NCBI GenBank assembly: GCA_964631935.1
Contig: CAZWAV010000001.1
Location: forward strand, 291,595-355,594
Direction: 5' to 3'
DNA length: 64,000 bases
Origin: an uncultured Candidatus Saccharibacteria bacterium
GTDB taxonomy: Bacteria; Patescibacteriota; Minisyncoccia; Phycocordibacterales; UBA9973
Part shown: positions 24,801 through 38,600 of the stretch, piece after piece
Layout: every line of letters starts with the position of its first letter
Position numbering within the stretch: position 1 is the first letter of the stretch
Notes under the pieces: model-generated
Told to the model about the DNA's origin: nothing
Seen by the model: only the letters and a program-made list of their open reading frames with translations
Database searches by the model: none
Translations under genes and position numbers: made by a program

Positions 24801-27800
24801 GAGTAATGAGCCCACTGTATGTGACGGCTGTTGATGATGTGTTCATGAGAGCCCCTTTCCCACCAACACCAGTACCACTAATAGTGAGTGCTTCAGCTGT
24901 ACCTAAGGTAAATCCATTTAGGTCAAGAGAGAATCCGCTTGCAACAGTAGTACCTGCAGCAGTTGTACCTAGTGGTGTATTGGTTGCTCCACCAGCAGCA
25001 CCCAGTCTTATCGTACCAGCACTAATTGTAGTTAATCCTGTATACGTATTACTACCAGCTAGTTCCAATACTCCAGCACCAGCTTTTCCAAAAGTAAATC
25101 CGCCACTTATCACTGCAGATATAACTGCGTCATTATCCATAAGTCCGTCACCAATAGTAAACGTTGCATTAGCTCCAAGACCCAAATTCCCTGTTATTAT
25201 TGAAGCAACATTGTTATTGGCAATCGTGGTAAATGTTCCATTGCCAGTAAGAGTACCTGCACCAGTAGCGATACTACCAGCGTTAATAGTAATGGTACCA
25301 ACCGTGTCAGAGTTGGCATTAAGGTTATACATACCTCCTACTATTGTTACCCCTCCACTAGAAATAACATTGCTTGCGCCAGCGGTAAGTGTTGCATTAT
25401 TAATAAATGTCGTACTTGTATAAAGGTTAGCAGCGCTAAGTGTGACATTGCCAGACCCACTTAATACAACTGACCCTGTTGTAGCCGTACCAATTACGGC
25501 AGAAATAGTTGAAGTATTTGTTGCTAAAATATCTAATTCAAGTGCACCAATACCGAGTGTTGTGTTTGCTCCAGCAATATTTGTGGCTGAGTTTATTAAA
25601 ATATTTCCTGCTAAAGAAGCCTGGGAAATCGTAATAGTAGCTGCACTTCCCGGGTTCGTTATAGCAAAACCGTTAAGTATAAGAGAGTTAATACTCACCG
25701 TACTTGCCGTAGTGTCAGCTGAGAGCTTTACGTTTGTATTTGTTGTTAGACTTGTAGAATATTCACCAGAGAAACCAGCACCATTGAGTAATCGAAGACC
25801 ATTGGTATTACCAAGGCTGTAAGTTACCATATCAGTACCTGTTCCACTTAAAGAATTGTCTCCAAAAGCACCTTTGATGACGCTTGCAGTAGTACTGTTG
25901 GCTGCTCCGGCAGCACCGGTCAATAAACCAGTTGAGGTAGTAAACATTAAAGTAGAAACATTGGCAGCAGGAGTAGAACCAAAGCTTGTACCACGGAAAA
26001 GTATCGTCGCTCCAGCGGTACGAGAGAAGGATGCGAAAGTCATCGTCGTTGATCCGCCAGCGCCAGGAGTGATGGTGACGACACTATGACCAGACGAAGG
26101 GGCAAGTGCACCTGTTGTTTCAGAAGAAGCCCCAGAAGCATTACCAATGAAGTTAAAGTTACCACCGTTGAGAGTTAGAGCGAGCGCATCACCAAGACGA
26201 CTTGCAACAGCTGTAGCACTATTATCTAGAGTTAATGTACCGCCTAAGTTTACTGTAATTGTAGTACTTACAGCTGAGCCTGATCCACTCAAAGTGAGTG
26301 TCCCCGCATTGATTGCTGTCCCACTACTAATAGTATTTGCGCCTGTCAACGTAACCGTATTGTTCGTATTTTTTGCGACTGGAATTGCTCCAGCCAAAAC
26401 TGCGCTAATTGTTCCACTTTCCAATGTATAGGAAGCTGCAGCGGTGAGTGTACCGTTTTGAATTGTTCCACCAACAAGAGTGACTGAACCGATAGTATCA
26501 GTACTTGCAGCCATATCAAATATTCCCCCAGCCACTGTTAAGTTTGTAGCTGCCAGCACCGTGACGTTACTCCCGTAAGCAAACGTCCCCGCATCAACTC
26601 TCGTTGCACCAGTATACGTCTCCGTCCCTGTTAGTGTCAGTGTACCGGAACCCTGCTTTGTTACCGTACCGGCACCAATACCAATAACACCAGTACTAAA
26701 CGCGATATTACTTGTCCCACTAAGATAGAGTGCAAAGGCCCCCGATGCTCCACCGGTGAATGTTACGAGTCCTGATCCAGAGTTTGCAATACGAGTGTCA
26801 GTCGCTTGAGTGATCGCACCACTATACGTGAGTGCACCACCGGAATTAACGATGGCTCCCCCATCACTTATTCCCCGTCCGTTCGTTGTTAGTGGTTCGG
26901 CAGCAGTCAATGTAAAGCCGTTCAAATCGAGTACTGCCCCACTCAGCACAGAAGTAGCTCCAGCAATAACACCAAGCGGGGTGTTTGTCGTACTCCCTGT
27001 CGCACCCATCTTAAGCGTTCCAACGTTAATACTCGTCGCGCCGGTAAAGGTACTCGCGCCAGAGAGTGTCCATGTTCCAGCACCAATCTTAGTAAGTGTT
27101 CCTCCAGTAGTACCGATGATACTAGAGAGTGTTCCGTTACCTGTTCCTCCTAATACTAGCCCGGTATTGGCTCCTGTTATAGTACCTGCAGCTGTTAGAT
27201 TAATAGTCCCTGAATCCGCCTTGATAGTAGTCGCAGAACCAAGTGTAATTAATCCACTATATGTCACAGTTGAACCAGAACTATTCATTAATGCGCCACT
27301 TGCAAAATCGCCGAGTCCGTAGCCGACACCGTTTAGTGTCAGTGGCTCCGCTATTCCAAGGCTGTATCCATTGAGATCAAGTCGTGCACCAGTAGCTACG
27401 GTTGTGATACCTGCAGTTGTACCAAGAGGTGAGTTTGTCCCACCAACAGAGACTGCACCAAGTTTTACAGTACCAACACTGATAGTAGTTGCCCCCGTAT
27501 ATGATGAGTTACCATTTGAAAGGGTAAGTGTACCTATTCCATCTTTAGTTAAAGTACTCGTACCAGACCTTACTCCTGAATACGTAATATCACTAAATCC
27601 TCCGAAGGTTAGTGCAAAGTTTCCAGATATATCACTACTGATTGTCATCGTCCCAGCATCAGCATTGATACGTGCTGCGGCGGTAAGTGTCAGAGCACCG
27701 CTGTACGTTGCAGGTGAAGCTGAACTATTCATGATTGCACCCATATTACTACCACCTGAAGCACCAAAACCTGTTCCAGCTAAAGATGTTATTGCTTCAG

Positions 27801-30800
27801 CCGTACCAAGAGTGTAGCCATTTAGATCTAATGCTCCTCCATTTGCAATAGTTGTTCCAGTACCAGTCGTACCCAGTGGTGTATTGGTTCCGCCCCCGGT
27901 TCCTCCAAGTTTTAAAATACCACTAGTGATAGTAGTTACTCCAGTGTAAGTATTGTCGCGAGTAAGAGTGACAACACTATCAGCTGCTGCACTTGTCGCA
28001 ATGCGTGTTACAGTAGCAGCTCCACCACCTAAGATTGCGCTAACTGTACCTTCACGTAAACTATAAGAAGTTCCAGAGAGTATTCCTGACGTTCCAGTTA
28101 TGGTTCCATTTTGCAACGTAACTGCTCCAACCGTATCAGAATTGCCAGCAATATCTAATGTTCCCCCTACTACCGTAACTCCCCCACTCGAAAGTACATT
28201 GCTTGCACCATATGTCAGTGTTGCATTATTGACTGCTGTTAAACCAGTAAAAGCGTTCGCCGCAGAAAGGGTGATATTCCCCGATCCACTGAGCGTTAGT
28301 GAGCCTGCTACGGCAGTTCCAATGACAGCAGAAATCGTTGAGTTTGCGGTTGCTAAAATATCAAGTTCGTTGGTTGTAATACCAATAGTGGTACTAGCCC
28401 CTGCGATATTATTTGCAGAGTTTATTAAAATATTTCCTGCCAGTGACGCTGATGCCATCGTGATAGTCGCACTTGCGTTTGTGATATCGTAGCCATTCAA
28501 TATGAGCGAGTTAATACTCACCGTACTTGCTGCAGTATCAGCGATGAGCTTTACGTTTGTATTTGTTGTTAACGTAGAAGAATACTCTCCAGAAAAACCA
28601 GTACTATTAAGTAATCGTAATCCGTTAGTGTTCCCTACGTTATACGTCACCATGTCAGTACCTGTACCACTCAAAGAGTTATCACCGAAGGCACCTTTGA
28701 TGACACTGATTGTTGAGGAGTTGGCTGCTCCGGCAGCACCAGTGAGTGTTGGAGCAGTTGTAAATAGTACAGTAGACACATTGGCGGCAGGAGGCGAACC
28801 AAGACTTGTACCCCTGAACAATACTGTCGCACCAGCAGTACGAGAAAGACTCGCAAACGTCATCGTCGTTGATCCTCCAGCGCCAGGAGTAACCGTGACG
28901 ACATTGTGACCAGACGCGGGAGTAAGGGCACCGGCTGTTTCGTATGCAGTACCAGAAGTGTTACCGATGAAGTTAAAGTTACCGCCGTTCATCGTGAGAG
29001 CTGCTGTATCACTAATACGGTTGAGAATTGTTGTGGATGTATTATCAAGTGTCAGAGTTCCACCACTACCTATCGTAATAGTCGAATTCGGTATAGCCCC
29101 CGCACTATTAAGTACAATCTCTCCTCGACTAAGGTTGGTAGCCCCCGTAAAGTTACTGAACCCTTCCATGGTTAATACTCCAGTATCATTTTTTGTGAGC
29201 GTCGCAGTAGTACCGTAGATAGGTGCAGTCTCCGTAAATGTTACGTTACCTGCACCACCGACAACAAGCCCTAAAGTTGTTGCTGATAAGCCTTTACTAT
29301 CAATAGTTAGCGTAGTACCCGTATCAGACTCAATCATATTTGCAGTACCACTAATTGTCAGCAGACCAGTTATAGTGTTGTCCCCAGTCATATTACGAAT
29401 TGCTCCAGTGTAGAGATGTCCTGTTCCAGAAAAGGTTATGTATTCAGGGACAGAGAGACCGCTCCCATCGATTTGTAGTGTCGCGCCGGAAGTTACCGTA
29501 GTGACACCATCGATAAGACCGAGGGCTGTACTGTCTTGAATTTTCAAGATACCAGCAGCAACACTAGTGTTACCAGTATAAAGATTTGGGCGTGTCAGAG
29601 TTACTGTTCCTAGAGTATTTTTGGTCAACGACGATCCGTCACCAGCGATAATAGCGCTGATTGTCCCTGCGTTGAGTGTCCAACTGACGGCTGATAGCAC
29701 CCCTGTAGTACCGGTGATTGTACCACTGGATAAATCAGTTGTACCGAGAGTTACCGTTCCTCCGAGCATGTCAGAGTACGAGGCGATATCAAGTGTGCCA
29801 GCATTAACAGTAACACTACTCGAAAGAAGAGCGTTATCAATACCATATAGAAGAATTCCTGCATTTATGAATGTTGTCCCAGTATAGGTATTGGGGAAAT
29901 TGTATTTGAGTGTACCAGAACCATTTTTGGTAACGGTACCAGAACCAATACCAATAGGTGCTGTTGTGTACGTGATATCGCCTGCACCATCAATGACAAG
30001 AGGAAATGCACCGCTCATACCGCCAGTAATGGTAAGTGTGCCTGAGTCTGAATCTATTTCAGCACCACCCGCAATCATAGTAATCAGTCCCCCAAATGTA
30101 TTGTTGTCACTAACGTTACGCAATGCGCCCCCATTAGAAACACCATAACCACGCAATGCCAATGCTTCATACCCGATGTTTATAGTCCCCTGTAACTCTA
30201 GCGCTGCACCACCGACAACTTCAGTACCATTAGTGGTAGACCCGTTAGTACCGAGCGCTCTATCGTTTTGAGCATTAACGACACCGACGTTAATTTTTAA
30301 AACTCCACCAAATGTATTTGCCCCAGAGAGCACGAGCTCCCCTGTTCCTTCTTTGTTGATACCACCAACACCTGCGATTCTCCCACTGATCGTCAATGTC
30401 TCTGCAGTATTGGTCACGACAATATCTCGAGTGACATCGAGACGAATATCTAATGCAATTGTATTTCCTCCGGATGCTACACTATCGGTGATTCCAGCAA
30501 GACCTGCTCCGAGTATAATCGGATTACCAGAAAGAGTATAACCACTCCCCGAAAAGGTAATAGAGTTGAAAATTGTGTTTTCAATAAAATCGTTGGTATT
30601 GGAAAGATTTGAAGCACCGTTTGGAAATACAAGATCGTCTCCTGTAACAGGAGCAGTGCCACCACTCCAGTTGCTCCCAACAGACCATGCAGTACTCGTT
30701 GTACCAGTCCAGGTTCTTGTTGCAGCTTCCGCTCTGTTTACATTCAGAGACAAGGAAAAAGCGATAGCAAAAAAGATTGCGAAAATTCGTATTGGATTTG

Positions 30801-30894
30801 TAAAAATTTTTTTCACAGGCTCGTACTTTGGTAAACTAGATAGATAGTCGACTAAAGTTAGTATTGATAGAGATACTACGTAATTATACCCCAA
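21817..30894 (-). CDS. Giant (3025 aa) surface protein built from autotransporter-associated/PATR-type beta-helix repeats
   Basis: N-terminal hydrophobic segment (IRIFAIFFAIAFSLSL) then AEAATRTWTG. Dozens of repeats of the form (GxGTLTLSGANTYTGxTTINAGTLxLG..NALG). The composition is heavily Gly/Thr/Ser/Ala/Asn-biased and Cys-free. There is a long internal duplication and poly-Gly tracts near the C-terminus. The + strand Pro/Val-rich ORFs across this interval are antisense shadows. Confidence 0.8.
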   Translation of the reverse strand: MGYNYVVSLSILTLVDYLSSLPKYEPVKKIFTNPIRIFAIFFAIAFSLSLNVNRAEAATRTWTGTTSTAWSVGSNWSGGTAPVTGDDLVFPNGASNLSNTNDFIENTIFNSITFSGSGYTLSGNPIILGAGLAGITDSVASGGNTIALDIRLDVTRDIVVTNTAETLTISGRIAGVGGINKEGTGELVLSGANTFGGVLKINVGVVNAQNDRALGTNGSTTNGTEVVGGAALELQGTINIGYEALALRGYGVSNGGALRNVSDNNTFGGLITMIAGGAEIDSDSGTLTITGGMSGAFPLVIDGAGDITYTTAPIGIGSGTVTKNGSGTLKYNFPNTYTGTTFINAGILLYGIDNALLSSSVTVNAGTLDIASYSDMLGGTVTLGTTDLSSGTITGTTGVLSAVSWTLNAGTISAIIAGDGSSLTKNTLGTVTLTRPNLYTGNTSVAAGILKIQDSTALGLIDGVTTVTSGATLQIDGSGLSVPEYITFSGTGHLYTGAIRNMTGDNTITGLLTISGTANMIESDTGTTLTIDSKGLSATTLGLVVGGAGNVTFTETAPIYGTTATLTKNDTGVLTMEGFSNFTGATNLSRGEIVLNSAGAIPNSTITIGSGGTLTLDNTSTTILNRISDTAALTMNGGNFNFIGNTSGTAYETAGALTPASGHNVVTVTPGAGGSTTMTFASLSRTAGATVLFRGTSLGSPPAANVSTVLFTTAPTLTGAAGAANSSTISVIKGAFGDNSLSGTGTDMVTYNVGNTNGLRLLNSTGFSGEYSSTLTTNTNVKLIADTAASTVSINSLILNGYDITNASATITMASASLAGNILINSANNIAGASTTIGITTNELDILATANSTISAVIGTAVAGSLTLSGSGNITLSAANAFTGLTAVNNATLTYGASNVLSSGGVTVVGGTLDIAGNSDTVGAVTLQNGTITGTSGILSGTSYSLREGTVSAILGGGAATVTRIATSAAADSVVTLTRDNTYTGVTTITSGILKLGGTGGGTNTPLGTTGTGTTIANGGALDLNGYTLGTAEAITSLAGTGFGASGGSNMGAIMNSSASPATYSGALTLTAAARINADAGTMTISSDISGNFALTFGGFSDITYSGVRSGTSTLTKDGIGTLTLSNGNSSYTGATTISVGTVKLGAVSVGGTNSPLGTTAGITTVATGARLDLNGYSLGIAEPLTLNGVGYGLGDFASGALMNSSGSTVTYSGLITLGSATTIKADSGTINLTAAGTITGANTGLVLGGTGNGTLSSIIGTTGGTLTKIGAGTWTLSGASTFTGATSINVGTLKMGATGSTTNTPLGVIAGATSVLSGAVLDLNGFTLTAAEPLTTNGRGISDGGAIVNSGGALTYSGAITQATDTRIANSGSGLVTFTGGASGAFALYLSGTSNIAFSTGVIGIGAGTVTKQGSGTLTLTGTETYTGATRVDAGTFAYGSNVTVLAATNLTVAGGIFDMAASTDTIGSVTLVGGTIQNGTLTAAASYTLESGTISAVLAGAIPVAKNTNNTVTLTGANTISSGTAINAGTLTLSGSGSAVSTTITVNLGGTLTLDNSATAVASRLGDALALTLNGGNFNFIGNASGASSETTGALAPSSGHSVVTITPGAGGSTTMTFASFSRTAGATILFRGTSFGSTPAANVSTLMFTTSTGLLTGAAGAANSTTASVIKGAFGDNSLSGTGTDMVTYSLGNTNGLRLLNGAGFSGEYSTSLTTNTNVKLSADTTASTVSINSLILNGFAITNPGSAATITISQASLAGNILINSATNIAGANTTLGIGALELDILATNTSTISAVIGTATTGSVVLSGSGNVTLSAANLYTSTTFINNATLTAGASNVISSGGVTIVGGMYNLNANSDTVGTITINAGSIATGAGTLTGNGTFTTIANNNVASIITGNLGLGANATFTIGDGLMDNDAVISAVISGGFTFGKAGAGVLELAGSNTYTGLTTISAGTIRLGAAGGATNTPLGTTAAGTTVASGFSLDLNGFTLGTAEALTISGTGVGGKGALMNTSSTAVTYSGLITLGAAATITANYGTMTLSNTGSMTGTGFALTLRGLGNGVLKTQVNTSTAGSLVKNDAGTWEIWGDSNYTGVTTVSFGLLRLGAAGGATNTPLGTTAGATTVASSAMLDLNGFTLGTAEPITINGSGIANTGAFINSSNNSISYTGAVTLGAASRIANHGTGMTTLTGNISGNFALTVVAVGNFTQSTNSVWSGSGTLTKEGSGTLILAGQNTMTGAMTVSTGTLQLGANGGATNTPFGTIAGGVTVSAGAVLDLSTYSVGGASTWEPLTLAGSGLLNGGALISNSSTGSTFATLSQTSSRIVNNGAGVLTITGAVSGASSFWVGGSGPTTISGNMGTAGIVLTKYGAGTLTLTAANTGASGGVRINEGTLAYGIADALSTPTVSVAGGTLDLKGFNETNISTVTLIDGSIVSTGGAATLTSTQQFILEKGTISAVLGSALAGGMAKNTAGRVILSGDNSFTSTSIALNAGYLNLQHSNALGASGTSLTTTISGGATLELQNNITLPSTKLITANGTGVNNTGAIRNVADSNTISANVTLGTTNVRINSDSGTLTFPTMSGNTFNAIFGGAGSTSVTGIISTTSGNLTKDGAGTLTLSGANTYSRPTMILGGTIVANATAALGDGTSTNTLIFNGGTLQASGTITSLSTRAVTLTGNGTIDTNGNSVSIAGTVGSAGGLTKAGLGTLTLTGVTTIGGNLTISDGTFVAPTSLTINGDFSNSGTFTHSNGTVTFVPTNSTLTANILGSSNTTFYNLTNTTAGSTLQFKAGNTYTFANTLTLTGIEGNPISINSDTPTSQWLMTLSGSSSISYLKVKDSGCSGGNTVGASTNIYDYGNNGVCWSFITITKSGGGGNIESSATPDGDQGGGGGGGSGGGGATTAIATAVVSSNIVQSVTINSGGSGYTSVPTVLFCGGGGSGALGTAVLTGDAVSSVTVDNGGSNYTTVPSVVFNSNCPTTGGGGGGGGSGGDIGFLYKIKRMLVFSEPFGLSIFRKYL
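25250..26250. repeat. Copy 2 of an ~1-kb intragenic segmental duplication inside the giant gene (about 85% identical to 28080-29080; offset ~2.82 kb)
   Basis: Antisense ORFs 24779..25423, 25442..25822, 25856..26089 and 26147..26431 are colinear and highly similar to 28100..28492, 28502..28909 and 28958..29218. In the sense protein the blocks LTLDN..GGNFNFIGN(T/A)SG...GHxVVT(V/I)TPGAGGSTTMTFAS(L/F)SRTAGAT(V/I)LFRGTS..LAGNILINSA.NIAGA.TT(I/L)GI occur twice, about 940 aa apart. Confidence 0.7.
28080..29080. repeat. Copy 1 of the intragenic segmental duplication
   Basis: See the partner entry. The constant ~2.82-kb offset between matching antisense ORF segments indicates a near in-frame duplication. 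Confidence 0.7.
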
Positions 30895-30964
30895 ATATAC
30901 TACATATGTATAGTAAATATAGTGTTAATAAACCTATTAGTATATAATATTTCATAGAACAGAT

Positions 30965-31669
30965 ATGACTAGTGAAATATATAAAACAATTGAAAGTGAA
31001 AGCATCCGTAGACAATGGGATAAGGAGAAGAATATTTGGTACTTCTCTGTGGTAGATGTCATAGGTATAGTTACTAGTAGTACTGACGCTAGAAATTATT
31101 GGAAAGTACTAAAGAATAGATTAAATAAGGCTAATCCGGAGTTGGTTACAAGATGTAACCAACTGAAAATGCCATCAAGCGACGGTAAAAGTTACCTGAC
31201 TGATGTTGCAGACAGTGAGACTATATTAGAGATTATCCGAGCAATTTCTATCCCCTATGTTGCCCCTTTTAGAAGATGGTTTAATGATATTGAATCACAG
31301 TCTAGTCCTAAAAATGAATACGAAGAAGAAACAGAAAAGGCTGAGCTTACAATAGATGCATACGAGACAGACAAAGATATAATTTTAGAATCTATGGTCG
31401 CAGGTGTATCAATAGAAAATTTATCTATCTCTATAACTTTGAGCGAGGTTATTATTTCAGGTAAACGATTAATTCCAGAGAATATATCTCACCTAGATTA
31501 TGTAATCCAGGAAATTTATTGGGGGGCATTCTCTCGCACGATTCCCTTGCCTTCCGAAATAGATATAGATGAGGCGCAAGCGAGTATAGAGCATGGATTG
31601 CTTAAAATAAAGTTACCAAAAATAAATAAACTTCGCACAAGAATAATAAAAATAAAATCACTTGGCTAA
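30965..31669 (+). CDS. Two-domain protein: Bro-N-like N-terminal domain fused to a C-terminal alpha-crystallin/Hsp20 domain
   Basis: 234 aa. The N-terminus (IRRQWDKEKNIWYFSVVDVIGIVT) resembles the Bro-N/KilA-N DNA-binding fold. The C-terminal ~100 aa are a clear sHSP alpha-crystallin domain (IDAYETDKDIILESMVAGVSIENLSISI...ISG.R........Y...E...GAFSRTIPLPSEIDIDEAQASIEHGLLKIKLPK). Confidence 0.6.
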   Translation: MTSEIYKTIESESIRRQWDKEKNIWYFSVVDVIGIVTSSTDARNYWKVLKNRLNKANPELVTRCNQLKMPSSDGKSYLTDVADSETILEIIRAISIPYVAPFRRWFNDIESQSSPKNEYEEETEKAELTIDAYETDKDIILESMVAGVSIENLSISITLSEVIISGKRLIPENISHLDYVIQEIYWGAFSRTIPLPSEIDIDEAQASIEHGLLKIKLPKINKLRTRIIKIKSLG

Positions 31670-31690
31670 TTAGCCAAGTGATTTTATTTT
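31653..31690. terminator. Bidirectional rho-independent terminator between convergent genes (aaaatcacttggctaa/ttagccaagtgatttt)
   Basis: Perfect 16-bp inverted repeat at 31655-31686 with A/T runs on both sides. It sits exactly between the stop of the Hsp20-fusion gene and the stop of the beta-lactamase-like gene. Confidence 0.6.
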
Positions 31691-32640
31691 TATTTACTAG
31701 TATTGTACGCATGCTCTGAAATTTCTTTCATTAGTCCTCTTGCCCAAGCTCTCGTTTCTTCTGTGGAATCTTTTCCTTTAATTATGACAGTAATCATATA
31801 TGGTTTCCCTGGAATATATACAATCCCTGAATCTGCAAAAATATTGTACTCTATGTTCTCGCCATACTTATGTGCAAATTTAACATTAGAAGGAATACCT
31901 TGCGATAGGTAATCTTTGAATGTCGCTTTGGACATGTAATCTAAGATTTTTTCAGATAATTCTGGACGTAGAAAGTTTGAAGTATAAAGTACTCGCAGTA
32001 GACGTGTATATTCTTTTGCGGAAACAAATCCTTTCTCATTATACAAATCCTGTAAGCCTACTTTTTCCTGAAAAACAATATAATCAGAAAAATCTAGTTG
32101 GTGTTTAAATATATTTTGAGCAGTATTGTCTGAGTTAACTAGTAACTCTTCTAATAGTTTTTCTACTGTTATCGGCTTATCCCCGATAGTTTTATACAGA
32201 GCCCCTGAATCAGAAGAGAGATCAGCTGGGTCTGCTTTAAGCTCTGTACTCCAAGACAAAGCTCCACTTTCAACCTTTTTTGCAATAAGTATTGCTTGTA
32301 CAAGTTTACTTAAAGATGCAGGAAATAGATGCAGATCTTTATTTACGCTTATGTTTGCTCCAGAGTTAATATTTTCATAATAAATAGAGATATTGTCTGG
32401 ATTTTTTTTACCAAAATCCATTAAATATGAACGTAAATCCTCTATGTTAGTTAAATAATTTTCTTGTGGAATAAACTTTTGAAGTGGGTCGAGCATCGGA
32501 AATTCTGTATCTTTGACTGGGTTAAGGCCAAAATATTGTGGTGAAAACCATGCAGCTATTGGTATGCACAAAGCAAGTATGAGCATAAAGATTCTTTGCT
32601 TTTTAAGTTCTTTAGATAATCTTTCAATTTCCTTATTCAT
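31690..32640 (-). CDS. Membrane-anchored serine hydrolase of the class-A beta-lactamase / penicillin-binding-protein fold
   Basis: Start set at internal MNKEIERL (ATG at 32638-32640), followed by a TM helix. The SxxK motif (PASLSKLV), the SDN motif (NSDNTA) and a KTG-like KYG motif are present. The upstream Gln/His/Leu-rich 72 codons of the track ORF overlap the giant gene's Pro-Thr tail and are judged non-coding. Confidence 0.65.
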   Translation of the reverse strand: MNKEIERLSKELKKQRIFMLILALCIPIAAWFSPQYFGLNPVKDTEFPMLDPLQKFIPQENYLTNIEDLRSYLMDFGKKNPDNISIYYENINSGANISVNKDLHLFPASLSKLVQAILIAKKVESGALSWSTELKADPADLSSDSGALYKTIGDKPITVEKLLEELLVNSDNTAQNIFKHQLDFSDYIVFQEKVGLQDLYNEKGFVSAKEYTRLLRVLYTSNFLRPELSEKILDYMSKATFKDYLSQGIPSNVKFAHKYGENIEYNIFADSGIVYIPGKPYMITVIIKGKDSTEETRAWARGLMKEISEHAYNTSK

Positions 32641-32683
32641 AATATGAGTATTATCTTTAATTAGTAAAACCAATTTAATTGTA

Positions 32684-35600
32684 TTAAGCAGATGTGGTTG
32701 AATTAGTATCAGGTGTTGGTTCTGGTGTAGGTACAGGATCTGGGGTTGGAGTTGGTGTTGGGTCTGGTGTAGGAGTTGGAGTAGGTGTCGGTTCAGGAGT
32801 TGGCACAGGATCTGGGGTTGGAGTTGGTGTTGGATCTGGTGTAGGAGTTGGGTCAATTATTATGCCTTCGATAACACTCTGGAATACTTGAGGATCACGA
32901 ACAGAGAGTGCGTTCCACGAGAATCGTATATCACGTGGAGCTGGTTTATTTAGTAGTATTGTAAATCCTGTTTGATCTTTTGATACGATTATAAATCGTA
33001 CGTCATTAGTAAATAGTGCGGTAGCCTGAGTATCGTCTACATTATCAGAACTTTCAAATGTTACAGATGTATTTACGACAGGTGTTGCTATGTATGCCTG
33101 ACTAAATACTACATGGACTCTCCTATCACCTTGTTTAACTAGAGCATATCCTGCAGTATCTTTATTATAAAGTGGTGGGACTACAAATTCAGTTTGACTA
33201 TTGAAAGTAGAATTATTTGCAAAGTTTATAAGACCATTGAATGTGGTATCTCCACTAAATGTTGCTCCACCTGTAACAGTAAGCGTATTCGTATTGAGAG
33301 TATTTAGAGCACTAAATGCATTCGCAGCAAGAAGTGCTTCGACAGCTTGGAGTCGTGTATTTATATCTGTACCGCTTGCAACAAGTCCTGAGACTGTTGT
33401 ATTCGTACCATCAACATCTGCTTTGAGTTGAGCAACATCTGCTTGCACTACTGTAAGCGCTCCTGATAGAGTGTTCATGACTGATGCAGTAAGGGTGAAA
33501 GCTTCTTGGCCTTGCGTAAGATTATTTATCTGATCAGTGATAGCTTGAATACCCGCAAGATCAGCAACTTGGATTTTCTTTGCTGTCACTGTGCCAGCAA
33601 ATGTAGCATTACCTAAACTATCAAAAGTTATCGCTGGTGTGGTTGTCTGTCCACCAATTGTAAACTTACCATTATCGCCAAGAATCAGACCTACATCTTT
33701 ACTCTCTCCGGCGCTAATCTTATTAACCTCCACATTATCAGCGACAACTTTCGGAGTAATCACGACACCAGCTGCAAGCCTATCTAGTAGAAGTTCGGAT
33801 GAAGAAGAATTACCGCTCTGTCCATTTTCTAAGAACTTCTGTAGTACTTGTCTTGCAAATACTCCATTGTCAATTACAGAAATTCCAGCAAATTCACTTA
33901 TGCTTTGGCCATCATAGAAACCTTGTTCAACATATACCATTACAGTAGAAGATCCAGAATTTGGTGTCCATGCTTCAAGTGCCTTACCTATAACGAAACC
34001 TCCCTTTGTGGCTTTTGTTGCCTTACCTCCTTCATCTGACGTAGTGACGTAGTCTCCAGGTGCTATAGATTCTGATGAAGAAGAGACTTTTACAGGCACG
34101 CGACCATTAAGCGCAATAGGCATAGGATTATCAGAATCTTTTATATTATGTCCAGCAGAAGTAAAGTCTCCATAGTTATCAGCGACAATACCAATGACAT
34201 TTCTCTGATATTTCTTATTTGATTTTACTAATCGAGTAACTTTACCTTTTACTTTGGTCCAATCGACATTACCATCGGTACTATCATAAGTATTTACCAT
34301 TTCTGTACCAGTAGTGACAATATCTCCATATTGTGTACCACTCTCTACTGGATACATCTCGGCGTAGTCAGCAGCCGGAGCTGCATTACAATCTCGGATT
34401 TCATATGCAGTACCAGCCGTAGGAGCAGTAGTATTCGCCAAGCTAGAACATACAGCATTTGTACTTGCTGTACCAGAGAGACCCATACTTACTACACCAG
34501 CACTTGTGACTTTAAATTTTAGAACACTCGCATTTTTGAAATCAAGGAAGTTTCCTGTAAAGGAAGTTGATCCACCACTTACTGCCATATCCATCAAGAG
34601 TGCATCTCCAGTAAACGCTGATGTATCATGATAGACTTGAAGCATTGATGGTGCAGAAGTCATAGAGCCAGTATAAAATCTTGCAACATCTCCTTGGGTT
34701 GTTCCTGTATTTTCTGCATACAAAGCAGCGGGCAATGCTACTCCTCCTGCAGAACCGTTAGTAAGAGCTTGGACGCCAAACGTTGCTCCAGTTGATCTGA
34801 TACCAGTGTTTGTACCTGCCGTATTACTACCAGCATTTGAAACAATTTCAATTCCGCGCACAAGGTTTGCAAGAGATGTATTATCTACTGTTCTTATTAC
34901 TTCCCCGACCATCGTATTGGCATTGGTCGTTGGCGCATTATTAAAAACAAAACGATTACCCACTTGTACATAACTAGCAGTACCTCCATTATTAAATGTG
35001 TAGTCACCGTGAATTCCGGCTATTGCAGTAGTCGATCCAGTTGAAGCCATAGTGGAAACGATGTTTAATTTCGCGAGCGTTCCTGAAGATAGTGTGGTAC
35101 CACCGAGGAGTGTCTGTCCTGCATCAACATTGAGTGCAAGATTTGTAGTACCACCAGATGCTGTTGTATAGAGACCGACATTCGTCGTAGCTGCTCCAGT
35201 ATTTGAGAAATATCCAGCATAGTCAGTACCAGTAGTTCCACCAGTTTGACCGATGTTGAGTGCTTTGTTTGATGCAGTAGTTGATGCAGTAGTTGCTCCG
35301 AGGGTTGTCCCGTCGTAAGTAAAGTTTGCACTTTCAGATAATATATTTGAACCGTTTTCGTACAAGACACGATTTGTAGAACCACTAGTTATAGCAGTTG
35401 TACCGACAGTAAGCCCACCTCCTGACCCACAAGCCGAAGCTGCAGCCGTTATGACTCCGGCATTATCTGTCTGTACACATTTTGTTCCCCCGCCACCGAG
35501 ACCAGAGAATGTAATTGTTCCTGATGATGTGATACCAGCCGCAGCAGCAATCACTCCGCTCGAATTAACCTGGAAGAGATCTCCGCTTCCAACAGTAAGA

Positions 35601-38600
35601 AGTGCATTTGGAGAAGTGTCACCTATACCGACATTACCTCCATCAAATATTCCGGCATAGTTTGTGTCTCCACCTGAGGCAGTTACATATATACCAATAT
35701 TTTTCAAAATGTTACTACCTGCAACTTCTGTAGCTGTTGCATTGAAATATCCAGCATAAGCGACAGCATCCCCTGTTGTTGTATTTATAGAAGCATTACT
35801 TGTATCTCCATAGATACCGTAACCAGTCACAACTCCTGAACCAGAACCTTGATATGATCCCCATATAGCATATCCACCATCGCCCGAGGCAAAACCTTTA
35901 ACTCCAGCAGAACCAGCTCCTGTGCCTGCATCTCCAGCAACACCAACTGCACTCGAAGTAAACCCAATAGCTGTTCCTGATACACCAATATGTCCTTTAC
36001 CCCAGACACCGTAGTTATTATTTGAGTTTATTGTAGCTTCACCATATACTCCATAATTCTGTGATGTACCAGCTGACGCTACAGCATATAGACCATAATC
36101 TTTTGAAGTTGTACCATCGTGAGCATTTGAAATATAAGCACCATATGTAATTTGGTTTGAAGTAGCATTTGTACCAGAGAGTGATATATTTAATCCTTTT
36201 TGGGTATTTGATGCGGCAGCAGTTGAAGTCGATGAAATGTTTAATCCTGTACCTGAAGAGAGACCGTTAACCACAATTGACTGACCGATACCTGTTGTTA
36301 ATCCAGAATACGTTTGTAAGAATTGTGTACCTGCAGTTGAGGCCGTTGACGATAAATCAAGCAATGCACCTGTAGTCGTAGATGTATCAACTGATGTTGA
36401 TGTTAGTTTTAGAAGTGATCCGCCGTTTGCAATGACGGAAGTCGTATGCGAAAGAAGTAATTCCTGGCCAGTAGTTAGTGAATTATTTATTATATTGAGA
36501 CCAGTCTGGGTTGTCGCAGTCCAGGTCATAGTTTGTGCTGTTGTACCAAAGGCTATGTCGGCACCTGTCGACGGATCGCCAATTGCATCCCAAGCAGTTG
36601 CTCCGCCAGATCCACAAGCTGCGGCGGCGGCCGAAATCACTCCAGAGTTATCCGTTTGAAGACATTTTGTTCCACCACCTGCAAGACTCGATGCAGTAAG
36701 AGTGCCAGTACTACCAATTCTTAATTTTTCTGACATTGCTGTACCACCTGACTGTGTGAGGAAGATGAGGTCACCTGTTTCAGAACCAGCAGTATTCGTA
36801 AGGTTAGTAATTTGAATACCAGCACGAGAGACTCTGTTGGTACCGTTAGTTGCCGTAAATATAAGTTGATTTGTATTGTCTAGAGATACTCCAATTACTC
36901 CGGTTGTCGCTGCAATCGTGTTGGTAGATATTAGTGGTGTCACATTTCCCCCAGCGTTAGTCGTTTTATATGTCACAGCAGAAATCCCAGAACTTCCTCC
37001 TAATAGTTGGGAACTCGCCGATGATACACCTGTTACTGAAAAACTAGCACTTGCTGCCAGTAAGTCGCTAAAAGTAAAGCTAGGATTTCCTCCTACACCA
37101 TCAAACGTAACTATTCCTCCGGTACTAACGGTCGTTGAATAATAATTAGATACGTCATAACCAACTCGCAATTGTTCAGTTGTATTTAAAATATGTAGCG
37201 ATGCTGATGGTGCTGTTGTGCCAATACCCACATTTCCTGCATCAAAGATGCCGGCGTAATTATTTGAGCCACCTGTCGCTGTTGCGTAAAGTCCCACATT
37301 TGTTGATGTTCCTGAGTGTGTATTTGAAATTCTTGCACCATATGTTGTCTGAGCTCCGGTACCGTTAACACCGGTAGTGAGAATATTGAGTGCAGTTTGA
37401 TTGGTAAGAGATCCCGTACTTGAAATTTGGAGATCAACAAGTTTTCCAGAAGTAAATGTATTTCCGGCTGCGGCGTAGAATCCTGTACCTGTTGTGAGAG
37501 AACTTCCATTCAATGCAACGATAGAGGATGTCGTTGTCTGGCTATTGTTTGCAGAGTTAAGAGATACATTACCGGCAGAACTTACTTGGAATTCAGAACC
37601 TCCTCCAACAGAGAAGAGGGCTGATGGAGAAACAGTGCCTATACCAACATTCCCTCCGTTTGTCACAAGTGCGTAATTAAGAGACCCTCCACTTGCAGCA
37701 AGTTTGAGGCCGTAGTTTGTACCAGAGCCTCCATGTGCATTTAAAATATTCGCCCCATAAGTAGCTTGAGCGCCAGTCGCATTGACTCCTGAAAATTGAA
37801 TATTGAGACCTGTCTGGTTTGTCGCAGCTGCAGTTCCACCAACTGAAATGTCAATTATTCTACCACTTGTAAGTGATGTTGATTCCAAATACATACTGGT
37901 ACCGGTAGTGAGAGAATTTTCTGCGATTGAAAATGCTGATGATGTACCTGTTTGTGTTGTAAATCCTGAGCTCTGGTTATACTGACCATAAATAAAAGCG
38001 CTACCAGTATAAAGATTGCTCCATGGAGCACCTGAGCTACCTAGGTCGTAAGTAAGTCCTGCATTAGGAATAAGTGATTGATTAATAGATGTCGTAGTGA
38101 GATTTGAGAGCGCAGTGTTTGCGGCACTTCCTCCTCCATTGGAGTGAACCATCAACCAATCCGTACCATTTGATTGCCAAGAAATTTTTTCGAGTGGTTG
38201 TAAAGTATAATTTGAAACAAGAGCTCCTGTCTGGTCTTCAACTCTTCCGGCTCCTCCATCAATAACATCTACAGCTTTAGTTGACGTATTTTTCACTATC
38301 GTATATATACGATTTGTCACAGTTGTTGCGTCAGGGAGAATTACACGAAAACCAGCACTTACTGATGAATTGATATTGTAGACATACCCTGGATCAGTCG
38401 TGACGTTGTAGTCAGCACCGAGAACGTCGAAGTCTACGTATTTATATTTCGCACCGAGAGTTCCGTTAATATCAACTGATGATAATGGTGTAGCGGTATT
38501 AATACCAAATGATCCATTACTACCAGTATTAGTAAAATATGCCTTTGAATTCACATCATCAATAGTAAAAAAATTTCCATTACCTATAGCATCAATATCA

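What the first reader, a model, noticed from the sequence alone, without database searches (positions are those of the whole stretch)
30965..31669. Bro-N-like DNA-binding domain fused to an Hsp20/alpha-crystallin domain
The C-terminal 100 aa are a clear small heat-shock-protein alpha-crystallin domain. The N-terminal 110 aa resemble the Bro-N/KilA-N fold (IRRQWDKEKNIWYFSVVDVIGIV) that is typical of phage antirepressors. A Bro-N-sHSP fusion is an unusual architecture. It could be a phage-derived regulator or chaperone. It lies between two giant surface-protein genes, and its own divergent promoter region is only 70 nt long.
Basis: partly seen in the sequence, partly recalled or inferred. Interest (0 to 1): 0.5.

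Follow-up and report, generated by a model that had tools for sequence, protein, structure and literature searches.

The report
Small heat-shock protein with Bro-N head
This gene encodes a small heat-shock protein whose usual floppy N-terminal arm has been replaced by a folded, probably DNA-binding Bro-N domain. The architecture is shared by a whole family in ultra-small (Patescibacteria/CPR) bacteria, has not been reported in the papers searched, and is annotated in the databases only as "Hsp20".

Summary
ORF 30965-31669 (+, 234 aa) has a genuine alpha-crystallin domain (Pfam HSP20 43.5 bits) and a canonical C-terminal I-x-I tail. It also has a confidently folded N-terminal domain of about 100 aa.

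That N-domain scores just below Pfam's Bro-N cut-off (20.5 vs 25.6 bits). It is nevertheless 41-58% identical to stand-alone DinD / PDC-S13-type proteins that pass the cut-off. Its model matches BRO and antirepressor proteins and the KilA-N/APSES/DdrC winged-helix fold.

The ACD half is 45-59% identical to ordinary ~154-aa Patescibacterial sHSPs. Their N-terminal "FFERL" arm has been replaced here by Bro-N plus a linker.

The fusion is a family, not a one-off: about 55 clusters at 50% identity, seen only in Patescibacteria-labelled genomes and never on viral contigs. It almost always sits alone on its strand between giant surface-protein genes. Sister proteins at the same locus have lost the ACD but keep the sHSP I-x-I tail, which argues that the Bro-N/sHSP link is functional.

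Best guess (inferred): an sHSP scaffold that displays several DNA-binding heads. Rivals are a conflict/defence module, a local regulator of the giant genes, or a client-specific chaperone. It is a new variant of known kinds, of moderate interest.

The parts
30965..31669 (+). Complete CDS of the Bro-N/sHSP fusion protein (234 aa plus stop)
   Evidence: The ORF list and sequence show it. An identical protein occurs on 7 public contigs.
30986..31294 (+). Bro-N-class head (aa 8-110): beta-hairpin, three helices, beta-hairpin wing, two helices
31295..31342 (+). Acidic, low-confidence linker (aa 111-126); variable in length across the family
   Evidence: pLDDT is below 50 at aa 116-121. Linker length is 7-57 aa in the family with mean net charge -3.9.
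31343..31621 (+). Alpha-crystallin domain (aa 127-219) with the F-x-R and G-x-L signature residues (F189, R191, G211)
   Evidence: Pfam HSP20 scores 43.5 bits. The fold matches solved sHSPs. It is 45-59% identical to plain Patescibacterial sHSPs.
31622..31666 (+). Basic C-terminal extension (aa 220-234) carrying the I-x-I motif I228-K-I230 (31646-31654)
   Evidence: The sequence shows it. The same 'IKIKSL' tail is found in 123 of 124 plain Patescibacterial sHSPs. The motif's role is described in PMC9800568.
30943..30948 (+). Probable -10 box (TATAAT) 16 nt before the ATG, implying a very short or absent leader with no Shine-Dalgarno sequence
   Evidence: The sequence shows it. An equivalent -10 box lies 13-20 nt before the ATG in nearly all of the 11 orthologous loci inspected.
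30883..30912 (-). Promoter-like site (TATACA-18-TATAAT) for the divergent giant gene; the TATAATT -10 box is the only motif shared by nearly all loci
   Evidence: The consensus scan finds it. AATTATA is present in 12 of 16 upstream regions, above the shuffle maximum.
31647..31692 (.). Perfect 20-bp inverted repeat spanning the stop codon; a bidirectional terminator shared with the convergent Beta-lactamase2-like gene
   Evidence: The terminator scan finds 4 sites against 0.5 expected. The sequence confirms it.
21817..30816 (-). Upstream, divergently transcribed giant secreted protein (2999 aa from GTG 30816; PATR repeats; signal peptide)
   Evidence: Orthologues at 64-77% identity hold the same position in L007, L012, L014, L015, L055, L090, L138 and L140.
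31690..32640 (-). Downstream, convergent Beta-lactamase2-like gene (316 aa)
   Evidence: Pfam PF13354 scores 124.8 bits. A member of this family lies next to the Bro-N gene, on either side, in most loci.
32684..39217 (-). Downstream giant protein (2177 aa), whose region around aa 1190-1890 recurs downstream of the Bro-N gene in nearly all related loci
   Evidence: tblastn finds 30-80% identity in 14 loci.

Best explanation
**What is shown.** The gene is a chromosomal, Patescibacteria-specific member of the small heat-shock protein family. The short, disordered, hydrophobic N-terminal region of the ordinary sHSP ('KRSFFERLTG...') has been replaced by a folded Bro-N-class winged-helix-like head of the DinD / PDC-S13 type plus an acidic linker. 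The alpha-crystallin domain and the C-terminal I-x-I tail are kept.

**What is inferred.**
- The ACD dimerises, and the I-x-I tail docks into the beta4/beta8 groove of neighbouring ACDs. The protein therefore forms dimers or larger sHSP-type assemblies, possibly mixed with the cell's plain sHSP.
- These assemblies display several Bro-N heads on flexible linkers.
- The heads bind DNA. Their near-invariance across phyla suggests a generic or structure-specific DNA feature rather than a private operator.
- The result would be a multivalent assembly associated with the nucleoid or with stress. It would couple the sHSP scaffold, and possibly its temperature- or client-dependent assembly state, to DNA.
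- Because the classical substrate-binding N-terminal arm is missing, it is probably not a general holdase on its own.
For: - **Architecture.**
- **Clean two-parent origin.** The head is 41-58% identical to stand-alone Bro-N proteins. These are DinD-like or PDC-S13-type proteins of 270-294 aa that pass Pfam Bro-N. The ACD plus tail is 45-59% identical to ~154-aa Patescibacterial sHSPs.
- **N-terminal region swapped.** An FFERL-type motif is present in 107 of 124 plain sHSPs but in 1 of 160 fusions.
- **Single origin likely.** Neighbour-joining trees split {89 plain sHSPs} from {70 fusions + 1}, and {72 stand-alone heads} from {70 fusions + 18}.
- **The head is the most constrained part.** It averages 61% identity to the query against 46% for the ACD, with 19 invariant residues. 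These include K47, K50 and R52 on helix 2 and K68 and K75 on the wing.
- **DNA-binding precedent for this fold.**
  - Bro-N and KilA-N are regarded as DNA-binding domains (PMC8096241).
  - A relative of the head is fused to a DinD-type C-terminal domain (E 3.8e-56). DinD is SOS-regulated and acts on RecA-DNA filaments (PMC6590174, PMC4849656).
- **The link between head and sHSP is selected.** 16 of 184 ACD-less relatives keep the linker motif (S/T)YPQ and end in the sHSP-type tail (KKIKIKSI, KKIKMKSI or KITKMRTI). One such gene, P0154 at locus L055, occupies the orthologous slot in a close relative. The only known role of that tail is docking onto an ACD (PMC9800568).
Against: - No experiment of any kind exists; DNA binding, oligomerisation and co-assembly are all inferred.
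- The head is only mildly basic (pI 7.7; family mean net charge +1.9).
- Bro-N domains in antirepressors may bind proteins rather than DNA.
- No family-wide operator-like motif was found upstream.
- No heat-shock control element (CIRCE) was found in the window.
- About 9 of 56 family members lack the whole C-terminal tail, and 14 of 56 fail the tail pattern. These could form at most dimers.
- I could not test whether the same genomes also encode a plain sHSP; none lies within 10 kb of any locus.
- AF2 gives no defined orientation between the two domains (pTM 0.55).
Confidence: 0.4

Rival explanations
1. It is a conflict (anti-phage or anti-mobile-element) module. The head is the sensor or targeting domain of a DinD / PDC-S13-type candidate defence protein. 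In Patescibacteria its helical C-terminal effector has been exchanged for an sHSP scaffold, which would oligomerise or sequester a target on infection.
For: - The head hits PADLOC candidate systems PDC-S13 (1.7e-37) and PDC-S04 (2.5e-24).
- Stand-alone relatives are scattered across phyla, archaea and viral contigs, as mobile genes are. One lies beside ResIII helicase, T5orf172 and metallophosphatase genes.
- The gene is often less conserved (40-54% identity) than its flanks (58-80%).
- The locus is mosaic. The closest homologue (80% identity, L139) has different flanks, and close relatives carry ACD-less forms.
Against: - PDC systems are candidates only, with no tested function. No paper mentions PDC-S13.
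- The putative effector half of PDC-S13 is exactly what is missing here.
- The locus is not a defence island: it holds giant surface proteins, PheS/PheT and HIT.
- In L140 the gene and its flanks are equally conserved, at 75-77%.
- GC3 is ordinary for the region.
- Other stand-alone homologues sit in metabolic contexts.
Confidence: 0.2
2. It is a local transcription factor for the neighbouring giant surface-protein genes. The Bro-N head binds the shared 148-nt divergent promoter region. The ACD provides dimerisation and possibly temperature-sensitive assembly, so that giant-adhesin expression follows stress or temperature.
For: - The gene is always alone on its strand.
- It is divergent from a giant gene, or from a ~330-370-aa gene preceding one, and convergent with another. 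This holds in the 11 long-contig homologue contexts and most of the GTDB loci.
- The arrangement persists when the Beta-lactamase2-like gene changes side.
- The arrangement also persists when the ACD is lost.
- One subclade shares a TGTGGATAAA motif just upstream of the -10 box.
Against: - The carriers are related. Their giant proteins are 64-77% identical, so the shared gene order may simply be inherited.
- No motif is shared across the family apart from the two -10 boxes.
- A head that stays 41-58% identical to proteins of Bacteroidota, Clostridia, Nanoarchaeota and phages is unlikely to read a lineage-private operator.
- 280-aa relatives in other CPR genomes are not next to giant genes.
Confidence: 0.15
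3. It is a client-specific chaperone or adaptor. The Bro-N head binds a protein, as antirepressor heads are thought to do. That protein could be a giant secreted protein or an envelope enzyme encoded next door, and the head would hand it to the sHSP system.
For: - The gene is conserved next to giant proteins and a Beta-lactamase2-like gene (same calls as the local-regulator rival).
- The ACD and I-x-I tail are fully canonical.
- ACD-less variants that keep the tail look like adaptors docking onto sHSPs.
Against: - The neighbours carry signal peptides and act outside the cytoplasm.
- The head's closest relatives (DinD-like, DdrC-like fold) point to DNA transactions.
- The head is far more conserved across phyla than any of the putative clients.
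Confidence: 0.15

Closest known systems
Ordinary Patescibacterial small heat-shock proteins (~154 aa, Hsp20/IbpA family; e.g. P0249 Parcubacteria, P0252 Yonathbacteria)
   Same: The ACD and C-terminal extension are 45-59% identical. The signature residues match, as does the 'IKIKSL' I-x-I tail.
   Different: Their ~45-aa N-terminal region with the FFERL motif is absent here. It is replaced by a folded 100-aa Bro-N head plus an acidic linker.
DinD-like / PADLOC PDC-S13 (and PDC-S04) proteins: Bro-N head plus a helical C-terminal domain of about 170 aa
   Same: The head is 41-58% identical, with the same invariant 'RNYWKVLKNRL...VT.CNQLK...DGK.Y.TD' core.
   Different: The helical C-terminal domain, DinD-type or 'NLRDNMTNLELVLNMLAE'-type, is wholly replaced by an ACD. 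Those proteins are scattered over many phyla and viruses in variable contexts. The fusion was found only in Patescibacteria-labelled genomes and at one locus type.
Deinococcus DdrC (damage-induced nucleoid-associated protein; PDB 7qvb, 8u1j)
   Different: There is no detectable sequence similarity to the window protein itself. DdrC dimerises through a domain-swapped four-helix bundle, not an ACD.
Viral BRO proteins and phage antirepressors (Pfam Bro-N PF02498; KilA-N/APSES fold class)
   Different: There is no Bro-C, ANT or KilA-C domain and no phage context. The Pfam score is below the gathering threshold.
E. coli IbpA as a nucleic-acid-binding sHSP that represses its own mRNA and is titrated away by aggregates (from my own knowledge, not checked here)
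   Same: It is a possible functional analogy: an sHSP whose assembly or client state is coupled to nucleic-acid binding.
   Different: IbpA has no separate folded nucleic-acid-binding domain. The analogy is untested here.

Membership tests
Small heat-shock proteins (Hsp20 / alpha-crystallin family) | Alpha-crystallin domain scoring above the Pfam gathering threshold | tested here: met
   PF00011 scores 43.5 bits against a 20.8-bit cut-off, over aa 134-230. All 56 homologues tested hit it.
Small heat-shock proteins (Hsp20 / alpha-crystallin family) | Beta-sandwich ACD fold with a long beta5-beta7 loop of the non-metazoan, beta6-swapping type | tested here: met
   The AF2 strands are 130-134, 138-144, 153-157, 161-168, 187-194, 205-209 and 212-219. 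The 169-186 loop has low confidence. Foldseek TM-target is 0.6-0.85 to Hsp16.5, Hsp16.9, HspA and others.
Small heat-shock proteins (Hsp20 / alpha-crystallin family) | C-terminal I-x-I/V motif for docking onto a neighbouring ACD | tested here: met
   I228-K229-I230 is present in a basic tail. It is conserved in most of the family, but about 9 of 56 members lack the tail entirely.
Small heat-shock proteins (Hsp20 / alpha-crystallin family) | Short, disordered, hydrophobic N-terminal region used for substrate binding and assembly | tested here: not met
   It is replaced by a folded domain (pLDDT 92.8). An FFERL-type motif is found in 107 of 124 plain relatives but in 1 of 160 fusions.
Small heat-shock proteins (Hsp20 / alpha-crystallin family) | Oligomer formation, ATP-independent holdase activity, stress induction | not testable with these tools
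   This needs biochemistry or transcriptomics. No CIRCE element is in the window and the leader is too short for an RNA thermometer.
Bro-N domain (Pfam PF02498; KilA-N/APSES fold class) | Score above the Pfam gathering threshold | tested here: not met
   The score is 20.5 bits against 25.6 (E 7.7e-4), although the alignment spans profile positions 2-92 of 96. Only 8 of 56 family members show the match at E<=0.01, with a best E of 7.9e-5.
Bro-N domain (Pfam PF02498; KilA-N/APSES fold class) | Homology to proteins that do pass the threshold | tested here: met
   It is 50-58% identical to stand-alone proteins scoring 30-51 bits on PF02498.
Bro-N domain (Pfam PF02498; KilA-N/APSES fold class) | Characteristic fold: beta-hairpin, helical core, beta-hairpin wing, C-terminal helices | tested here: met
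Bro-N domain (Pfam PF02498; KilA-N/APSES fold class) | DNA binding | not testable with these tools
   This is inferred only from relatives (PMC8096241, PMC9303277).
DinD / PADLOC PDC-S13 candidate defence proteins | N-terminal head of the family | tested here: met
   PDC-S13 scores 127 bits (E 1.7e-37), aa 4-113 to profile positions 5-114 of 286.
DinD / PADLOC PDC-S13 candidate defence proteins | Helical C-terminal domain of about 170 aa (DinD-type or PDC-S13-type) | tested here: not met
   The match stops at profile position 114 of 286 and an ACD follows. NCBIfam DinD does not hit the window protein.
DinD / PADLOC PDC-S13 candidate defence proteins | Location in defence islands or mobile contexts | tested here: not met
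   The flanks are giant surface-protein genes, a Beta-lactamase2-like gene, PheS/PheT, HIT and an AddA-like helicase. GC3 is ordinary.
Phage antirepressors (Ant / KilA type) | C-terminal ANT, KilA-C or Bro-C domain and a phage or prophage context | tested here: not met
   No such Pfam hit was found. There are no phage genes nearby. The fusion is absent from 43 viral loci and 50,697 phage records.

The most novel reading that the evidence does not exclude
Patescibacteria have a previously unrecognised system that recruits a DinD-type DNA-binding head onto sHSP assemblies. The recruitment happens in two ways: in cis, as the Bro-N-ACD fusion found here, and in trans, through ACD-less Bro-N proteins that keep only the (S/T)YPQ linker motif and the I-x-I docking tail. 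Such a system would tether the sHSP machinery to DNA, or conversely make DNA binding depend on proteostasis or infection state. It would be genetically tied to the giant surface-protein loci of these episymbionts.
Probability: 0.2. Interest if true: 0.7.

Novelty: new variant of a known kind. Interest (0 to 1): 0.5.

Why it matters
- **For the sHSP field.** sHSPs are defined by an ACD flanked by disordered arms, and the N-terminal arm is thought to be essential for client binding and assembly. A sizeable natural family has replaced that arm with a folded, strongly conserved, probably DNA-binding domain. Its sister proteins have dropped the ACD but kept the docking tail. Together they give a ready-made natural experiment on what the ACD/I-x-I scaffold can do on its own.
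- **For a possible DNA link.** The family suggests a direct connection between the sHSP system and DNA in organisms with minimal genomes.
- **For annotation.** Well over a hundred database proteins labelled only 'Hsp20/IbpA' hide a Bro-N head that sits just under the Pfam threshold.
- **For the stand-alone relatives.** The work ties the uncharacterised PADLOC candidate PDC-S13 to the DinD family, and more weakly to DdrC.
- **For CPR biology.** The gene's fixed position between giant surface-protein genes marks a conserved but mosaic locus worth attention.

Tried and rejected
- **Profile of the head against PDB sequences.** No credible hit; the best E was 0.36. The fold search was needed instead.
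- **afdb50 fold library.** It was not available, so I could not check whether the two-domain architecture is present and named in AlphaFold DB.
- **Literature.** Searches for 'Bro-N'+'Hsp20', 'alpha-crystallin domain'+'Bro-N', 'Saccharibacteria'+'Hsp20' and 'PDC-S13' found no papers. A search on sHSP domain architecture with KilA-N gave nothing relevant. One search was swamped by 'Clavien-Dindo'.
- **Heat-shock control.** No CIRCE element is in the window, even allowing 3 mismatches. The -10 box lies 13-20 nt from the ATG in the orthologous loci, which leaves no room for an RNA thermometer.
- **Shared operator.** A k-mer search of 16 upstream regions found only the two -10 boxes above the shuffle expectation. 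Palindromes seen by eye in AT-rich DNA (TACATATGTA and similar) were not pursued as evidence.
- **Phage-borne fusion.** Rejected. All viral and phage matches stop at the head, and a six-frame ACD HMM scan of the 43 viral loci found nothing.
- **Paralogues in the window.** None for either domain.
- **A plain sHSP gene beside the ACD-less variants or the fusions.** None within 10 kb.
- **'The fusion always evolves faster than its flanks'.** This is only partly true. It holds for L007, L012, L014, L015 and L138. It does not hold for L140, where conservation is equal, or for L139 and L005, where the upstream giant genes differ. I therefore describe the locus as mosaic rather than claim accelerated evolution.
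- **Recent horizontal transfer by composition.** There is no signal: GC3 is 0.285 against 0.235-0.371 in the neighbours.
- **Taxonomy of the window.** It could not be fixed. Cluster look-up returned no organism names. The MAGs with 64-74% identical giant proteins are variously labelled Saccharibacteria, Nomurabacteria, Paceibacterota and Minisyncoccia. I therefore say only Patescibacteria/CPR.
Full report
**1. The observation**

The C-terminal half is an unambiguous alpha-crystallin domain (ACD).
- Pfam HSP20 scores 43.5 bits against a cut-off of 20.8.
- There are sequence hits to solved sHSPs such as S. pombe Hsp16.
- Foldseek of the AlphaFold2 model returns more than 100 sHSP chains.
- The classical signature residues are present and conserved in the family: F189-x-R191, G211 in 'HGLL', 'LPK'.
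- The last 15 residues are a basic tail with an I-x-I motif, I228-K-I230.

The N-terminal half aligns end to end with Pfam Bro-N (profile 2-92 of 96). It scores only 20.5 bits (E 7.7e-4), under the 25.6-bit gathering threshold.

**2. Is the N-terminal part really a Bro-N domain?**

Yes, on three independent grounds.

(a) Other profile libraries see it strongly: PHROG 15286 at E 2.9e-30, and PADLOC PDC-S13 at E 1.7e-37 and PDC-S04 at E 2.5e-24.

(b) A profile of the domain retrieves thousands of proteins. The best are stand-alone proteins 50-65% identical to it, and most carry a precomputed Bro-N annotation. Seven of the ten that I rescanned score 30-51 bits on PF02498.

(c) The domain folds with high confidence (pLDDT 92.8, pTM 0.83) as beta-hairpin, three helices, beta-hairpin wing, two helices.
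- Foldseek against viral models returns BRO-family, 'Bro-N domain-containing', 'repressor domain' and antirepressor proteins.
- DdrC's N-terminal domain is described as a beta-hairpin followed by a wHTH and a helix, the same order of elements (PMC9303277).

**3. Where the two halves come from**

The head's nearest relatives are 270-294-aa proteins found in Bacteroidota, Clostridia, Proteobacteria, Melainabacteria, Nanoarchaeota, CPR and on viral contigs.
- They share the near-invariant core 'RNYWKVLKNRL...VT.CNQLK...DGK.Y.TD'.
- They have one of two helical C-terminal domains.
- One type matches NCBIfam DinD at E 3.8e-56. The other, the 'NLRDNMTNLELVLNMLAE' type, matches DinD and DdrC only weakly.
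- PADLOC groups both under PDC-S13.
- DinD is a LexA-regulated protein that removes RecA filaments (PMC6590174, and PMC4849656 citing Uranga et al. 2011).

The ACD plus tail is 45-59% identical to ordinary ~154-aa sHSPs of Parcubacteria, Yonathbacteria, Paceibacterota and others.
- These start with 'KRSFFERLTG' and end with the same 'IKIKSL' tail.
- An FFERL-type motif occurs in 107 of 124 plain sHSPs and in 1 of 160 fusions.

The fusion is therefore a clean swap: the sHSP's N-terminal region has been replaced by a DinD-type head plus an acidic linker of variable length (7-57 aa).

Neighbour-joining trees place the fusions on one side of a single split in both domains, which is compatible with one origin.

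**4. How big and how restricted the family is**

An exhaustive HMMER search of 1.84 billion cluster representatives finds about 55 clusters at 50% identity that cover both domains. At 90% clustering, the best 120 hits are all full length. Of the proteins fetched, 160 carry both domains.

In species-representative genomes, full-length matches were seen only in MAGs labelled Saccharibacteria, Minisyncoccia or Patescibacteria, plus one unclassified 'bacterium'.

No viral contig and no phage record has the fusion. A six-frame ACD scan of all 43 viral loci was negative.

Within the family the head is the most conserved part: mean 61% identity to the query against 46% for the ACD, with 19 invariant positions.

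**5. Genomic setting**

In the window the gene stands alone on the + strand.
- **Upstream and divergent:** a 2999-aa PATR-repeat secreted protein. Its likely start is GTG 30816, which gives the signal peptide MKKIFTNPIRIFAIFFAIAFSLSLNVNRAEA. The intergenic region is then 148 nt, not 70 nt.
- **Downstream and convergent:** a 316-aa Beta-lactamase2-like gene, then a 2177-aa giant protein.
- **Further out:** PheS/PheT, a HIT protein and an AddA-like helicase-nuclease. There is nothing phage-like.
- **Terminator:** a perfect 20-bp inverted repeat spans the stop codon and serves both convergent genes.
- **Promoter:** a TATAAT box lies 16 nt before the ATG, and similarly in nearly all of the 11 orthologous loci inspected. 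This implies a leaderless or near-leaderless mRNA.
- **Heat-shock element:** no CIRCE element was found in the window.

The same layout recurs in the 11 long-contig homologue contexts examined, across 42-80% protein identity. In each, the gene is alone on its strand and is flanked on the other strand by very large genes (1450-5580 aa, or cut by the contig end) wherever the contig extends past the gene. It also recurs in most GTDB loci.
- A homologue of the downstream giant (its region around aa 1190-1890) is present in 14 loci.
- A Beta-lactamase2-like gene lies next to the Bro-N gene on either side.

Caution is needed, because the carriers are related: their giant proteins are 64-77% identical. 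Inherited gene order could explain much of this.

The locus is also mosaic.
- The gene is less conserved than its flanks in L007, L012, L014, L015 and L138.
- It is equally conserved in L140.
- The closest homologue (80% identity, L139) has a different upstream giant gene.

GC3 gives no sign of recent transfer.

**6. The most informative side result**

Among head-only proteins that cluster with the fusions, 16 of 184 have the head, a linker with a conserved (S/T)YPQ motif, no ACD, and a C-terminus of KKIKIKSI, KKIKMKSI or KITKMRTI. That C-terminus is the sHSP I-x-I tail.

Two ACD-less genes occupy the orthologous slot between the same giant genes in close relatives of the window organism.
- L055 encodes P0154 (180 aa, with tail). 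Its upstream giant is 72% identical over 2965 aa.
- L090 encodes P0191 (151 aa, no tail).

The only known role of the I-x-I motif is to dock into the beta4/beta8 pocket of a neighbouring ACD (PMC9800568). Its retention without an ACD therefore argues that these heads are meant to sit on sHSP assemblies: in cis in the fusion, in trans in the ACD-less forms.

**7. Mechanism**

Shown: the architecture, the two parentages, the loss of the canonical N-terminal region, the retention of the ACD and tail, the conservation pattern, and the locus.

Inferred:
- The ACD dimerises by the non-metazoan beta6-swap. The long 169-186 loop has low confidence in the monomer model.
- The tail links dimers, possibly including plain sHSP subunits.
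- The heads bind DNA.

The basis for the DNA-binding inference is as follows.
- The fold class and the DinD and DdrC relatives point to DNA.
- Invariant basic residues sit on helix 2 (K47, K50, R52) and on the wing (K68, K75).
- The head is so conserved across phyla and viruses that its ligand should be universal, which fits DNA or a DNA-protein filament better than a lineage-specific operator.

I therefore favour a multivalent, DNA-associated sHSP-type assembly, at confidence 0.4. The rivals are:
- a conflict or defence module (0.2), resting on the PDC-S13 kinship, the mosaic locus and domain loss;
- a local regulator of the giant genes (0.15), resting on the divergent arrangement and a subclade-specific TGTGGATAAA motif;
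- a client-specific chaperone or adaptor (0.15).

Points against the favoured model:
- there is no experiment;
- the head is only mildly basic;
- no shared operator was found;
- some members lack the tail;
- co-occurrence with a plain sHSP in the same genome is unknown.

**8. Comparison with known families, and novelty**

It is a member of the sHSP family by its ACD and tail, but it fails the 'disordered N-terminal region' feature.

It belongs to the Bro-N class by homology and fold, but not by the Pfam threshold.

It shares only the head with DinD / PDC-S13, and it is not a phage antirepressor.

No paper in the searchable library links Bro-N with Hsp20 or the ACD, or mentions PDC-S13. Source annotations say only 'Hsp20/IbpA'.

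I rate it a new variant of known kinds, with interest 0.5. It is a tidy and sizeable example of an sHSP scaffold re-used to display a folded nucleic-acid-binding head. The ACD-less, tail-retaining sisters make the idea directly testable. Its function is wholly inferred.

Noticed in passing
Related proteins P0123, P0125-P0127, P0130, P0136, P0138, P0140, P0141, P0148, P0151, P0154, P0158, P0160, P0182, P0220; locus L055 9983-10525: These are ACD-less sister proteins of 155-180 aa. Each has the Bro-N head, a linker with a conserved (S/T)YPQ motif, and an sHSP-type I-x-I tail (KKIKIKSI, KKIKMKSI or KITKMRTI). One of them, P0154 at L055, sits in the orthologous slot between the same giant genes.
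   Followed up: partly
Linker of many fusion homologues (alignment A1 columns ~190-200); not present in the window protein: A short (S/T)(Y/F)P(Q/H/E/N) motif just before the ACD occurs in 58 of 160 fusions and 26 of 184 head-only relatives. It occurs in only 3 of 124 plain sHSPs. It may be a second docking motif, but its role is unknown.
   Followed up: partly
window 31690-32856 (-) versus 31690-32640 (-): The 388-aa ORF in the mechanical list is an artefact of 5' extension. Its first ~72 codons overlap the 3' end of the giant gene, reading its Pro/Thr-rich repeat in another frame. The real Beta-lactamase2-like gene is 316 aa, as called by JGI and matched by Pfam.
   Followed up: yes
window 30816-30894 (-): The upstream giant ORF as listed starts at TTG 30894. 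GTG 30816 gives a textbook signal peptide (MKKIFTNPIRIFAIFFAIAFSLSLNVNRAEA), agrees with the JGI call, and leaves the predicted minus-strand -10 box (30883-30888) upstream of the gene.
   Followed up: yes
Upstream regions of L010, L016, L136, L137 (about 25-30 nt before the -10 box): A conserved GTGTGGATAAA motif is shared only by the subclade whose proteins lack the I-x-I tail (P0109, P0102, P0097 and the L016 protein). It could be a subclade-specific -35 region or an operator.
   Followed up: partly
window 32684-39217 (-), protein region around aa 1190-1890; loci L005-L016, L055, L090, L135-L138: The central to C-terminal part of the downstream giant protein is conserved at 30-80% identity in every related locus but has no Pfam family. 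Near its C-terminus there is a 'DYAEMY...GD(I/V)V' stretch. From memory this resembles intramolecular-chaperone or auto-cleavage domains of phage tail-fibre-like proteins. This was not tested.
   Followed up: no
L048 9971-10816; L112 8001-8444 (viral contig): The PADLOC candidate defence family PDC-S13 appears to be the DinD family in a broad sense. A viral member matches NCBIfam DinD at E 3.8e-56. The commoner 'NLRDNMTNLELVLNMLAE' type weakly matches both DinD (1.5e-4) and Deinococcus DdrC (3.4e-4) in its C-terminal half.
   Followed up: partly
Loci L012-L015, L055, L090: MAGs whose giant proteins are 64-74% identical to those of the window carry conflicting submitter labels: Saccharibacteria, Minisyncoccia, Nomurabacteria and Paceibacterota. 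At least some of these labels are probably wrong.
   Followed up: no
window 31647-31692: The perfect 20-bp inverted-repeat terminator overlaps the last seven codons, so the conserved C-terminal 'IKIKSLG' peptide and one terminator arm are encoded by the same bases.
   Followed up: no
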